In this document: positions 1-9,684 of the stretch, in pieces
Position numbering within the stretch: the stretch's first letter is position 1
How the letters are laid out: the number at the start of each line of letters is the position of its first letter
Source: a virus
Lineage: Duplodnaviria > Heunggongvirae > Uroviricota > Caudoviricetes
Reading direction: 5' to 3' (one strand)
DNA length: 48,765 nucleotides
IMG/VR virus record: IMGVR_UViG_2877982868_000002
Made by a program: the position numbers and the translations under genes
Notes under the pieces: model-generated
What the model saw: the letters and a program-made list of their open reading frames with translations, nothing else
Told to the model about the DNA's origin: nothing
Databases searched by the model: none

Positions 1-3000
1 GTGCCAGCTTCCGCAGTAGGTGCGCTGGGCGAAGCCAGCTACACGGTGACGGCGAACGTCACCGACAGCGCAGGCAACAGCAATTCCGCCAGCCATAACG
101 TGCAGGTCAATACCGCGCTGCCTGGCGTCACCATTAACCCAGTTGCGACCGACGATATTATTAACGCCGCCGAATCGGGCAATGCGCAAACCATCAGCGG
201 CCAGGTGACGGGGGCGGCGGCGGGCGATACGGTTACCGTAACGCTTGGCGGGAAAACTTACACCGCTACCGTGCAGGGGAATTTAAGCTGGAGCGTGGAC
301 GTTCCGGCGGCGGATATTCAGGCCATCGGCAATGGCAATCTGACGGTTAACGCTTCGGTGACCAACGGCGTTGGCAATACTGGCAGCGGTTCGCGAGATA
401 TTACTATCGACGCCAACCTGCCAGGTCTGCGCGTTGACACCGTGGCGGGCGATGATGTGGTCAATAGCATCGAGCACGCTCAGGCGCTGGTGATAACTGG
501 TAGCAGCAGCGGGCTGGCGGCGGGCGCGGCGCTGACGGTGGTGATTAACACGGTCACTTACGCTGCAACAGTATTAGCCGATGGCACATGGAGCGTTGGT
601 GTTCCGGCGGCAGACGTGAGTAACTGGCCTGCGGGTACGGTGAATATCACGGTAAGTGGCACTAACACAGCCGGAACAACATCCACCATCACCCATCCGG
701 TCACCGTCGATCTGGCGGCGGTGGCGATTTCCATTAACACCGTTTCCGGCGACGATGTGATTAACGCCGCCGAAAAAGGGGCAGATTTAACCCTTTCCGG
801 CAGCACCTCCGGCGTGGAAGTGGGGCAAACGGTCACCGTTACCTTTGGCGGGAAAACCTACACCGCTACCGTAGCGGGCGATGGTAGCTGGACAACCACC
901 GTACCCGCCGCCGATCTCAGCGTGTTACGCGACGGCGACGCCACCGTGCAGGCCAGCGTCAGCACTATTAACGGCAACACGGCTTCGGCAACCCACGCCT
1001 ACAGCGTCGATGCCACGGCCCCGACGCTTGCCATTAACACCATCGCCACCGACGATATTCTGAACGCTGCCGAGGCGGGCAATCCGTTAACCATCAGCGG
1101 TAGCAGCACCGCCGAAGCGGGGCAGACGGTAACCGTCACGCTTAATGGTGTGACTTACAGCGGCTCCGTCCAGGCGGACGGCAGCTGGAGCGTCAGCTTA
1201 CCGACGGCGGATCTCAGCAATCTGACCGCCAGCCAGTACACCGTTAGTGCCTCGGTAAGCGATAAAGCGGGTAACCCGGCGTCCGCTAACCACGGGCTGG
1301 CGGTGGATCTCACCGTGCCGGTGCTGACCATCAACACCGTCTCCGGCGATGACATTATTAACGCCGCCGAACACGGACAGGCGCTGGTGATCTCCGGCTC
1401 CAGCACTGGCGGCGAAGCGGGTGATGTCATCACCGTCACACTAAACAGTAAAACCTACACCACCATGCTGGACGCTTCCGGCAACTGGAGCGTCGGCGTT
1501 CCGGCGGCTGACGTCACTGCGCTTGGCAGCGGCCCGCAAACTATCACTGCGGCAATTACCGACGCGGCAGGCAACAGCGATGACGCCAGCCGCACGGTCA
1601 CCGTGAATCTCGCCGCGCCAACCATTGGTATCAACACCATCGCCACCGATGACGTGATTAAAGCCACGGAAAAAGGCGCGGACCTGCAAATCACCGGCAC
1701 CAGTAATCAGCCTGCGGGCACCACCATTACGGTGACGCTGAACGGGCAAAATTACACCGCTACTACCGATAGCAACGGCAACTGGAGCGCCACGGTGCCA
1801 GCGTCAGCGGTTAGCGCATTGGGTGAAGCCAACTACACGGTAACGGCAAACGTCACTGATACGGCAGGCAACAGTAATTCCGCCAGTCATAATGTGCTGG
1901 TCAACAGCGCCTTGCCTGCCGTTACCATTAACGCGGTGGCGACTGACGATATTATTAACGCTGCCGAATCGGGAAATGCGCAAACCATCAGCGGGCAGGT
2001 GACGGGCGCAGCGCAGGGGGATACGGTTACCGTTACGCTGGGCGGCAACACCTACACCGCCACGGTGCAGTCTAATTTAAGCTGGAGTGTGGACGTTCCG
2101 GCGGCGGATATTCAGGCGCTGGGCAACGGCGACCTGACGGTTAATGCCTCGGTCACCAATGGCGTCGGCAACACCGGCAGCGGCTCGCGCGATATCACGA
2201 TCGACGCCAATCTGCCTGGCCTGCGGGTCGATACCGTGGCGGGCGATGATGTTATTAACAGCATTGAGCACAATCAGGCGCTGGTGATCACCGGCAGCAG
2301 CAGCGGATTAACGGCGGGAACGGCGTTAACGGTCGAGATTAACAACGTTACTTATGGCGCGACGGTATTAGCCGACGGCACGTGGAGCCTCGGTGTTCCG
2401 GCGGTAGACGTCAGCAACTGGCCAGCGGGTACGGTGAATATCACGGTAAGCGGCACCAACAGTGCCGGAACAACCTCCACCATTACCCATCCGGTTACCG
2501 TCGATCTGGCTGGGGTCGCCATCACCATTAACACTCTCTCTGGTGATGATGTGATCAACGCCGTCGAAAAAGGCGAAACGCTGGTCGTAAGCGGCAGCAC
2601 CAGCGGTGTCGAAGCCGGGCAGACGGTGACCGTCACCTTTGGCGGCAAAAATTACACCACCACAGTGGAAGCTAACGGTAGCTGGACGGTGAATGTGCCG
2701 CCTGCCGATCTCGCTGCGCTACCGGACGGCGCGGGCAACGTGCAGGCGAGTGTCAGTAATATTAACGGCAACAGCGCCCAGGCCGATCGCGCGTATAGCG
2801 TTGATGCCACCGCGCCGCTTGTGACCATCAACACCATCGCCAGCGACGATATCCTTAACGTGAGCGAAGCTGGCGCGGGGATCACCATCAGCGGCACTAC
2901 CACGGCGCAGGCCGGGCAGACGCTCACCGTCACGCTCAATAACAACACGTACCAGACCACCGTTCTGGCGGATGGCACCTGGAGCGTGAATGTTCCGGCA

Positions 3001-9684: not shown

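What the first reader, a model, noticed from the sequence alone, without database searches (positions are those of the whole stretch)
1..9684. Highly recombinogenic superrepeat architecture in the adhesin gene
Beyond the ~300-bp unit repeats, longer blocks recur at irregular intervals (similar ~130-bp stretches begin near nt 1, 1796, 5097, 8683). This suggests modular duplication and shuffling; copy number is likely to vary between strains and to collapse in short-read assemblies.
Basis: seen in the sequence. Interest (0 to 1): 0.4.

Follow-up and report, generated by a model that had tools for sequence, protein, structure and literature searches.

The report
Six-domain superrepeat in siiEA adhesin
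The region is an internal piece of the known giant E. coli O157:H7 adhesin gene siiEA, built from an old, regular six-domain superrepeat that changes copy number only occasionally, and in this strain the gene is cut off by a Mu-like prophage.

Summary
Window nt 1-130 recurs at 1795, 5089 and 8680 at 78-80% identity, against a 31.5 +/- 4.7% background.

These blocks are the tail of one unit type in a regular 1794-1797 nt superrepeat. The superrepeat holds six diverged ~100-aa Ca2+-stabilised Ig-like domains (types A-F) in a fixed order.

The spacing looks irregular for two reasons. O157:H7 lost one F unit in a 300-nt deletion at a 14-nt microhomology (window 3439-3453). The F unit at 6886 has also diverged.

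The sequence is 9670/9671 identical to siiEA of EDL933 (O-island 28, Z0615/rtxB28 part).

- "Highly recombinogenic" and "shuffling" are not supported. Copies are 71-77% identical, no exact repeat reaches 41 nt, and unit order and positional orthology hold across Escherichia. The six types and their order also hold in Salmonella, Enterobacter, Lelliottia, Citrobacter and Cedecea.
- Copy number does vary, but rarely. Of 34 sampled full-length loci, 30 were modal (52 units). The others were -1 superrepeat (two), -2 superrepeats and +3 units.
- Collapse of this gene in short-read assemblies is unlikely.

The ORF end at 9684 is not natural. A Mu-like prophage starts at 9672.

The parts
1..123 (+). 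3' part of an F-type Ig-like unit. The window starts inside siiEA, at gene nt 4594 of EDL933.
124..1917 (+). Superrepeat copy 1: units A B C D E F (124, 424, 724, 1024, 1321, 1621).
   Evidence: NF033510 Ca_tandemer, 6 stretches, 552 bits; PDB 4P99 E=5e-67
1918..3414 (+). Superrepeat copy 2: units A B C D E only. The F unit is missing, which is specific to the O157:H7 lineage.
3439..3453 (+). Junction of the O157:H7-specific 300-nt in-frame deletion, at the 14-nt microhomology GGCGATGACATTAT. The unit at 3415-3717 is an F/A chimera.
   Evidence: O55:H7 RM12579 versus EDL933
3415..5211 (+). Superrepeat copy 3: A(chimeric) B C D E F.
5212..7008 (+). Superrepeat copy 4: A B C D E F. Its F unit (6709-7008) is the most diverged of its type.
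7009..8802 (+). Superrepeat copy 5: A B C D E F.
8803..9671 (+). Superrepeat copy 6, partial: A, B and a truncated C. siiEA sequence ends at 9671.
8331..8352 (+). 21-nt stretch CGGCAAAACCTACACCACCAC, repeated at 9528-9549. It is the crossover site of the 1197-nt (4-unit) deletion in O157:H7 strain Z1835.
5857..5894 (+). Longest exact intragenic repeat (38 nt). The second copy is at 9448-9485.
9672..48765 (+). Mu-like (Sp18-like) prophage. The left end starts with TG at 9672. It includes a 201-aa ORF on the minus strand (9922-10527), MuA (10893-12983), MuB (13055-13987) and Mom (48028 to the window end). The last codons and the stop of the 1-9684 ORF come from this element.

Best explanation
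**What it is.** Window nt 1-9671 is an internal segment of siiEA. This is the giant type-I-secreted, BapA-related adhesin gene of O-island 28 in E. coli O157:H7, and the window lies in the Z0615/rtxB28 part.

The segment encodes the extender stalk: tandem ~100-aa Ca2+-stabilised Ig-like domains (Pfam Big_13, NCBIfam Ca_tandemer, the fold of MpIBP region II).

**Anatomy.** The stalk is a higher-order repeat. Six diverged domain types sit in a fixed order. In gene phase the order is E F A B C D, repeated 7 times in the modal 52-unit gene. This array follows five unique units and precedes a fixed tail, E x C y E.

**Age and stability.** The array is old and largely frozen in Escherichia.
- Copies are 71-77% identical at the nucleotide level.
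- Each unit has a positional orthologue in other E. coli, E. ruysiae and Pseudocitrobacter.
- The six types, their order and the tail are shared with Salmonella, Enterobacter, Lelliottia, Citrobacter and Cedecea.

**How it changes (inferred).** The array grows and shrinks mainly by whole-superrepeat, in-register events. It also changes by RecA-independent slippage or illegitimate recombination at 12-21 nt microhomologies, which removes or duplicates 1-4 units. Both kinds of event are rare enough that about 88% of sampled loci keep the modal length.

**Why six types (inferred).** Dissimilar neighbouring domains (38-51% amino-acid identity) limit slippage and inter-domain misfolding. Stalk length is probably under stabilising selection.

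**State in this strain.** O157:H7 carries a GAG>TAG nonsense codon at codon 1462, upstream of the window, plus two in-frame deletions. One of those deletions is the missing F unit in the window. A Mu-like prophage inserted after nt 9671 separates the window's ORF from the C-terminal RTX and T1SS signal. The window's ORF is therefore most likely not exported (inferred).
For: **Identity**
- 9670 of 9671 nt are identical to EDL933 siiEA.
- The locus context is TolC - siiEA - ABC - HlyD, between ybaT and cueR.
- NF047714 adhesin_SiiEA scores 510 bits at the N-terminus of the O55:H7 orthologue, and TIGR03661 matches its C-terminus.
- Pfam Big_13 gives 16 stretches. Ca_tandemer gives 6 stretches per 598 aa. 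PDB 4P99 matches at E=5e-67.

**Hexad**
- Within-type nucleotide identity is 0.70-0.75; between types it is 0.55-0.63. Every unit's best match is of its own type.

**Stability**
- The unit maps are identical, and the best hits are positional orthologues, in O55:H7, L26, O145, R32, JSWP006, S1-SRL, O158:H23, KE55 and 19KM1803.
- 30 of 34 sampled loci are 24401-24408 nt long.
- No k-mer of 41 nt or more is repeated.
- The distribution of conversion-run lengths is close to the shuffled null.
- Polymorphic sites by codon position number 269, 227 and 1191.

**Variants and junctions:**

**Other genera:**

**Prophage:**

**Function:** OI-28 is reported as an adhesion system in PMC12758282.
Against: - The CNV frequency comes from about 60 sampled rows, not a full census. 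Some variants could be assembly errors: CE10 is an old assembly, and strain 142, Z1835 and MLI121 are single records.
- The O157:H7 lineage shows four unit-scale events despite only 0.1% divergence from O55:H7. The mutational input may therefore be higher than the modal conservation suggests, with selection removing variants where the gene is intact.
- Minor alleles occur in paralogous copies more often than in a shifted-column control (0.87 versus 0.72 at third positions). Short conversion patches cannot be excluded.
- In Salmonella, Enterobacter and Lelliottia some copies are 95-100% identical. The family as a whole does undergo recent superrepeat-level turnover.
- The selective explanations (misfolding avoidance, selection on length) are inference only.
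Confidence: 0.85

Rival explanations
1. The array is a highly recombinogenic, actively shuffling module set, in effect a contingency locus. Its copy number differs between most strains, and short-read assemblies collapse it.
For: - Structural variants exist: -1803 (three genomes sharing one allele), -3594, +892, -1197, +309, -300 and about -1123 nt.
- Two of about 19 sampled O157-lineage genomes carry a unit-scale change.
- In other genera, copies are near-identical and draft contigs break inside the array.
Against: - 30 of 34 sampled loci are modal.
- Order and positional orthology are invariant.
- Copies are 71-77% identical, and the longest exact match is 38 nt.
- Unit-scale junctions use only 12-21 nt of identity, so they are not long-homology events.
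- There is no excess of conversion tracts.
Confidence: 0.1
2. The six-type order is kept by selection because the stalk has a real six-domain structural or functional period. Possible forms are specific neighbour interfaces, a supra-domain twist, or spaced ligand or Ca2+ sites. This would be analogous to titin super-repeats.
For: - The same six types, in the same order and with the same tail ExCyE, occur in at least six other genera whose C-terminal regions are 54-90% identical to E. coli's.
- Types are 57-73% identical across genera but only 38-51% identical to other types within E. coli.
- SR-scale deletions are exactly in register.
- Third-codon-position polymorphisms dominate.
Against: - Order conservation is also what whole-block duplication gives when no mechanism exists to reorder units.
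- Out-of-register in-frame variants exist in nature. O157 lacks an F unit, and Z1835 has an E/C chimera. Both occur in a pseudogene background, so they say little either way.
- No structural evidence was obtained here.
Confidence: 0.2
3. The higher-order signal is an artefact of unit-level periodicity, codon and composition bias, or chance.
For: TRF finds no tandem repeat in 1-12000. Adjacent units are only 52-64% identical.
Against: - Lag-1794 identity is 0.54, against 0.313 +/- 0.02 for in-frame lags and 0.46 at lag 300.
- All 31 complete units group perfectly by type and period.
- TRF is blind here because its longest period is 500 nt and the units are too diverged for its score threshold.
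Confidence: 0.01

Closest known systems
SiiEA (BapA-related adhesin; O-island 28 Z0609/Z0615 = rtxA28/rtxB28) of E. coli
   Same: It is the same gene. 9670/9671 nt match EDL933. RefSeq names it siiEA, and NCBIfam has a dedicated model, NF047714. OI-28 is reported to mediate early adherence (PMC12758282).
   Different: - The window holds only the internal extender part, and here a Mu-like prophage cuts it off.
- PMC12758282 treats Z0609 and Z0615 as two RTX proteins. Comparison with O55:H7 shows one ancestral 6925-codon ORF, split in O157:H7 by a GAG>TAG change.
- I found no description of the six-domain superrepeat in the papers searched.
MpIBP / MpAFP region II extender of Marinomonas primoryensis (PDB 4P99, 4KDV) and Marinobacter Lap (6XI3)
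   Same: The domains are homologous Ca2+-dependent Ig-like extender domains of a T1SS RTX adhesin (E=5e-67 to the RII tetra-tandemer; NF033510 and NF012196). The likely role is the same: a rigid stalk that projects the ligand-binding end.
   Different: MpIBP RII is about 120 copies of an identical 104-residue repeat (abstract of PMC4083281). Here six diverged types repeat as a block, neighbouring units are 38-51% identical and same-type units 65-77%.
Patterned extender arrays of RTX adhesins (bioRxiv 10.1101/2025.09.30.679566)
   Same: That survey reports extender regions with near-identical neighbours, with pairs of dissimilar extenders repeated in series, and with more complex patterns. It also reports variable extender numbers and misassembly from short reads.
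   Different: This is a period-6 pattern of old, diverged copies. It is stable within a species, conserved in order across genera, and free of long exact repeats.
Salmonella SiiE and BapA
   Same: Both are giant T1SS adhesins made of tandem bacterial Ig domains with Ca2+ sites. SiiE has 53 BIg domains (abstract of PMC5466336). The BapA prefix-like N-terminal domain is shared.
   Different: They lie at different loci and belong to different domain families. Despite its name, siiEA is not the SPI-4 siiE orthologue. A superrepeat was not examined in those proteins here.
Titin A-band super-repeats (7- and 11-domain Ig/Fn3 patterns); from my own knowledge, not tested
   Same: A long string of Ig-fold domains in which position-specific domain types recur with a fixed higher-order period, and same-position domains are more alike than neighbours.
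   Different: Titin is eukaryotic and unrelated in sequence. Its period matches a known partner lattice (the thick filament). No partner or structural period is known here.

Membership tests
SiiEA / T1SS RTX-type giant adhesin | Sequence identity to the annotated siiEA gene | tested here: met
   Window 1-9671 matches EDL933 siiEA with 1 mismatch.
SiiEA / T1SS RTX-type giant adhesin | N-terminal BapA prefix-like / SiiEA-specific region | tested here: not met
   Not present in the window, which starts at gene nt 4594. It is present in the full-length orthologue: NF047714 510 bits (cut-off 425) and NF033677.
SiiEA / T1SS RTX-type giant adhesin | C-terminal type I secretion target domain | tested here: not met
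   Absent from the window's ORF. The prophage at 9672 separates it from the 3' part. TIGR03661 is present in the O55:H7 orthologue.
SiiEA / T1SS RTX-type giant adhesin | Adjacent TolC-family, ABC and HlyD-family T1SS genes | tested here: inconclusive
   Present around siiEA in EDL933 and in all 17 other loci fetched. They lie outside this window on both sides.
Ca2+-stabilised Ig-like extender repeat (NF033510 Ca_tandemer / Pfam Big_13 / MpIBP RII fold) | Tandem ~100-aa units matching the family profile and a solved extender structure | tested here: met
   32 units spaced 99-101 aa apart. Big_13 E=1.6e-153. Ca_tandemer 552 bits with 6 stretches in 598 aa. PDB 4P99 E=5e-67.
Ca2+-stabilised Ig-like extender repeat (NF033510 Ca_tandemer / Pfam Big_13 / MpIBP RII fold) | Ca2+-dependent folding and rigidity | not testable with these tools
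   Needs biochemistry or structures.
Higher-order (super)repeat | Units fall into k types that recur in a fixed order, with same-type identity above neighbour identity | tested here: met
   Six types. Within-type nucleotide identity is 0.70-0.75 and between-type 0.55-0.63. All 31 best matches are of the same type. Lag-1794 identity is 0.54 versus 0.46 at lag 300.
Contingency locus / hypervariable repeat array | Near-identical tandem copies giving long exact homology | tested here: not met
   Copies are 71-77% identical. The longest exact repeat is 38 nt, and none reaches 41 nt.
Contingency locus / hypervariable repeat array | Copy number differs between most closely related isolates | tested here: not met
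   30 of 34 sampled non-O157 loci are modal. About 17 of 19 sampled O157-lineage loci are 23774-23784 nt long.
Mu-like transposable prophage (the element truncating the gene) | MuA transposase, MuB and Mom; an end starting with TG; varied insertion sites | tested here: met
   Pfam Mu-transpos_C plus HTH_Tnp_Mu_1, Phage-MuB_C and Mom. TG at 9672. The same left end lies in hyfE, mhpD, sorM (Sakai Sp18), tauA and other genes elsewhere.
Mu-like transposable prophage (the element truncating the gene) | 5-bp target-site duplication | not testable with these tools
   The right end lies beyond the window, which ends inside mom.

The most novel reading that the evidence does not exclude
The six-domain order is not just a by-product of block duplication. 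On this reading it is a selected structural period of the adhesin stalk. The evidence is that the same six types, in the same order and with the same tail, persist from Escherichia to Enterobacter, Salmonella, Lelliottia, Citrobacter and Cedecea, while whole blocks are gained and lost in register. That would make it a bacterial counterpart of titin super-repeats.
Probability: 0.2. Interest if true: 0.55.

Novelty: new member of a known kind. Interest (0 to 1): 0.3.

Why it matters
The gene and its role are already known, so the practical value is mostly corrective.

1. The '~9.7 kb adhesin ORF' is a fragment of a 20-kb gene. In O157:H7 that gene is already split by a nonsense codon, and in this strain it is also broken by a Mu-like prophage.
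2. Unlike many RTX adhesins, this array can be assembled and typed from ordinary reads, and its units can be numbered as positional orthologues. Deletions such as the O157-specific loss of one F unit could therefore serve as lineage markers.
3. The six-type order is conserved across enterobacterial genera. That gives a concrete, testable question about why giant adhesin stalks are built from ordered sets of dissimilar domains.

Tried and rejected
- **Tandem Repeats Finder on 1-12000 found nothing.** Its longest period is 500 nt and the units are too diverged, so this is uninformative rather than negative.
- **The search for homologous proteins with the whole 3227-aa ORF timed out.**
- **The same tool with the non-repetitive C-terminal 900 aa worked.** The collection returned nothing longer than 1553 aa for this family, so no protein-length census was possible there.
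- **Locus length from the EDL933 query worked only for the O157 lineage.** Megablast pieces broke up in other lineages. Repeating with a phylogroup-typical query (JSWP006) solved this.
- **A single-gap breakpoint model failed for strain 54214.** That strain has an extra 3-nt indel. A MAFFT alignment resolved it.
- **Gene-conversion hypothesis.** Minor alleles are enriched in paralogues, but the run-length distribution matched the shuffled null. I did not claim conversion.
- **Structure prediction of one hexad was considered and not run.** Inter-domain geometry predicted without Ca2+ would not settle the structural-period question.
- **I looked for the same siiEA::Mu junction in 5426 complete E. 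coli genomes.** None has it.
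Full report
**1. Checking the observation**

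The ORF at 1-9684 is open from the first base of the window and encodes 3227 residues. A conserved D-D-x-x-N motif recurs 32 times at 99-101-residue spacing, which defines ~300-nt units.

Autocorrelation of the nucleotide sequence is highest at lags 3294 (0.554), 1794 (0.541) and 3591 (0.529). Lag 300 gives only 0.461. In-frame lags overall average 0.313 +/- 0.020, and out-of-frame lags 0.240.

Window nt 1-130 matches only three in-frame offsets at 70% or better: 1795, 5089 and 8680, at 78-80%. The background is 31.5 +/- 4.7%.

**2. Anatomy of the repeat**

The 31 complete units in the window cluster into six types.
- Within-type identity is 0.70-0.75 at the nucleotide level and 0.65-0.77 at the amino-acid level.
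- Between-type identity is 0.55-0.63 (nucleotide) and 0.38-0.51 (amino acid).
- Every unit's best nucleotide match is a unit of its own type.

The order is strictly periodic: F'|ABCDEF|ABCDE_|ABCDEF|ABCDEF|ABCDEF|ABC'. The superrepeat is 1794-1797 nt long, and copies are 71-77% identical over their full length.

The 'irregular' spacing has two causes. One F unit is missing after nt 3414, and the F unit at 6709-7008 has diverged (its tail is 57% identical to nt 1-130).

**3. Identity of the gene**

Megablast against 5426 complete E. coli genomes gives 100% identity over window 1-9671 to O157:H7 strains, where the feature is annotated 'siiEA: BapA-related adhesin SiiEA'. A direct comparison with EDL933 shows 1 mismatch in 9671 nt.

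In EDL933 the gene is 20,160 nt. It lies between a TolC-family gene and T1SS ABC and HlyD genes, inside the ybaT-cueR interval, and is flagged as a pseudogene with an internal stop. Window nt 1 corresponds to gene nt 4594.

The units match Pfam Big_13 and NCBIfam Ca_tandemer, with 6 stretches in 598 aa. They also match the solved Ca2+-dependent extender of the Marinomonas ice-binding adhesin (PDB 4P99, E=5e-67). The full-length O55:H7 orthologue carries the SiiEA-specific N-terminus, the BapA prefix-like domain and a T1SS C-terminal target domain.

The locus is O-island 28. A 2025 paper reports it as a Ca2+-responsive T1SS adhesion system with 'two RTX proteins', Z0609 and Z0615 (PMC12758282). 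The comparison here shows those two are halves of one ancestral ORF. O55:H7 RM12579 has an intact 20,778-nt gene. EDL933 differs at codon 1462 by GAG>TAG. The window lies in the downstream (Z0615) half.

**4. The whole-gene map and its stability**

The modal gene has 52 Big_13-type units: five unique units, then (E F A B C D) x 7, then a tail E x C y E.

The same map was found in O55:H7, L26, O145, R32_14_1F, JSWP006, S1-SRL-01-C, O158:H23, KE55 and 19KM1803. In each, every unit's best match is its positional counterpart at 84-100% nucleotide identity. These alleles differ by 3-6.5% overall. Nothing has been shuffled.

A search with the 24,408-nt JSWP006 locus, sampled at even steps down the ranking, returned 34 rows with full coverage:

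| Locus length | Rows |
|---|---|
| 24,401-24,408 nt (modal) | 30 |
| +892 nt | 1 |
| -1803 nt | 2 |
| -3594 nt | 1 |

In the O157 lineage, about 17 of 19 sampled loci are 23,774-23,784 nt. One has +309 nt and one has -1197 nt.

**5. How the variants arose**

Closely related pairs allow the junctions to be read directly.

| Variant | Size | Junction |
|---|---|---|
| O157 loss of one F unit | -300 nt | 14-nt identity GGCGATGACATTAT (window 3439-3453) |
| Second O157 deletion, outside the window | -318 nt | 12-nt identity |
| Z1835, between an E and a C unit | -1197 nt | 21-nt identity (window 8331-8352 and 9528-9549) |
| Strain 142 | +309 nt | exact tandem duplication |

These are short-microhomology events, not recombination over long homology.

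In contrast, the -1800 nt change (54214; GTEN_97 has the same protein accession) and the -3594 nt change (MLI121) are exactly in register with the superrepeat. The same holds for the -3588 nt change in CE10. MLI121 differs from S1-SRL-01-C by only 2 substitutions plus the deletion. Its crossover lies in two F units that are 76% identical locally and share just 5 nt of exact identity at the crossover point.

**6. Tests of 'recombinogenic' and 'assembly collapse'**

- The longest exact repeat in the window, and in the whole gene, is 38 nt. No k-mer of 41 nt or more occurs twice. A de Bruijn assembly at the usual k values should therefore have no repeat-induced ambiguity inside this gene.
- Among eight modal alleles, minority alleles are found in paralogous units more often than in a shifted-column control (0.87 versus 0.72 at third codon positions).
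- However, runs of consecutive donor-matching sites follow the shuffled null distribution. There is no clear gene-conversion signal.
- Polymorphic sites number 269, 227 and 1191 at codon positions 1, 2 and 3. This is the pattern expected for a gene under purifying selection.

**7. Other genera**

Anchoring on the non-repetitive C-terminal 900 aa found 59 loci in species-representative genomes.

- The 1794-1797-nt lag dominates in Escherichia spp., Pseudocitrobacter, Salmonella enterica s1, Enterobacter, Lelliottia, Citrobacter murliniae and Cedecea.
- Pseudomonas and Micavibrio relatives show only the unit period.
- Classifying units against the E. coli types recovers the same six types in the same order, followed by the same tail ExCyE, in all of the enterobacterial genera listed above.
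- Pseudocitrobacter, E. ruysiae and Escherichia sp. E1V33 keep positional orthology with E. coli.
- In Salmonella s1, Enterobacter and Lelliottia some same-type units are 95-100% identical. Several draft contigs end inside the array.
- E. whittamii has an allele that lacks the array.

The hexad therefore predates these genera. It turns over by blocks in some lineages and is essentially frozen in E. coli.

**8. The 3' end of the 'gene' in this window**

siiEA sequence stops at 9671. From 9672 (TGTAACCAGG...) the sequence is the left end of a Mu-like prophage.
- That left end is identical to elements inserted in many different genes of STEC genomes, including Sakai Sp18 in sorM.
- MuA, MuB and Mom are present.
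- The distal 24.8 kb is 99.8-99.9% identical to prophages in many STEC genomes.
- No complete genome in the collection has this junction.

The last four codons and the stop of the 1-9684 ORF are prophage sequence. The window's ORF is therefore cut off from the C-terminal secretion signal. By inference, it cannot be exported as an adhesin in this strain.

**9. Verdict**

Modular block duplication and occasional copy-number differences are real. 'Highly recombinogenic', 'shuffling' and 'short-read collapse' do not fit this gene.

The gene is known and annotated, and patterned extender arrays are described for RTX adhesins in general (bioRxiv 10.1101/2025.09.30.679566). This is a well-characterised instance of a known kind. 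Its one mildly surprising property is that the six types keep their order across genera.

Noticed in passing
window 9672-48765 (junction at 9671/9672): A Mu-like (Sakai Sp18-like) prophage is inserted in siiEA and supplies the ORF's last codons and stop. The same prophage sits in many different genes in other STEC genomes. None of 5426 complete E. coli genomes has this junction. The expected 5-bp target duplication (GCAAC) cannot be checked because the right end lies beyond the window.
   Followed up: yes
L001 (EDL933) siiEA codon 1462, gene nt 4384; 210 nt upstream of window nt 1: O157:H7 siiEA carries GAG>TAG relative to the intact O55:H7 gene. The 'two RTX proteins' Z0609/rtxA28 and Z0615/rtxB28 described in PMC12758282 are therefore fragments of one ancestral 6925-codon ORF. 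How the reported phenotypes of both fragments arise is unexplained.
   Followed up: partly
L003, L004, L006, L012, L013, L018; H110/H170 (GDSC2227PM); L021 (E. whittamii): siiEA is independently inactivated in many lineages. There are nonsense codons in L26 and O145 RM12367-C1, and frameshifts in 2013C-4282, KE55, ETEC4079 and CE10. Nearly the whole array is missing in GDSC2227PM and E. whittamii. This suggests frequent loss of function.
   Followed up: partly
L006 (2013C-4282), L018 (CE10), H141 (Z0117EC0005): An alternative allele class carries about 894 nt (three extra, divergent units, 62-73% identical to any O55:H7 unit) between unique units c and d, upstream of the superrepeat array.
   Followed up: partly
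L023 (Salmonella enterica s1), L030 (Enterobacter), L036 (Lelliottia); contig ends in L027, L031, L033, L035, L038, L040, L042, L062: Orthologues in other genera have some same-type units 95-100% identical, and several draft contigs terminate inside the array. Recent block duplication and assembly fragmentation occur there, unlike in E. coli.
   Followed up: partly
siiEA unit 8 of the whole gene (outside the window); Unit 8 exists in two deeply diverged allelic forms, about 85-87% versus about 95% identical to O55:H7. L26 has a cluster of 33 minority sites, some matching paralogous A units. This may be an old short conversion or an imported segment.
   Followed up: no
L024 (contig labelled Vagococcus sp. 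WN89Y); P0022 (labelled Abscondita terminalis, a firefly): Close homologues of this enterobacterial adhesin appear in records assigned to a Gram-positive genus and to an insect. These are probably contamination or mislabelling.
   Followed up: no
window 9922-10527 (- strand): A 201-aa ORF sits between the prophage left end and MuA, about where I recall (not tested here) phage Mu's repressor gene to lie. It has no Pfam match.
   Followed up: no
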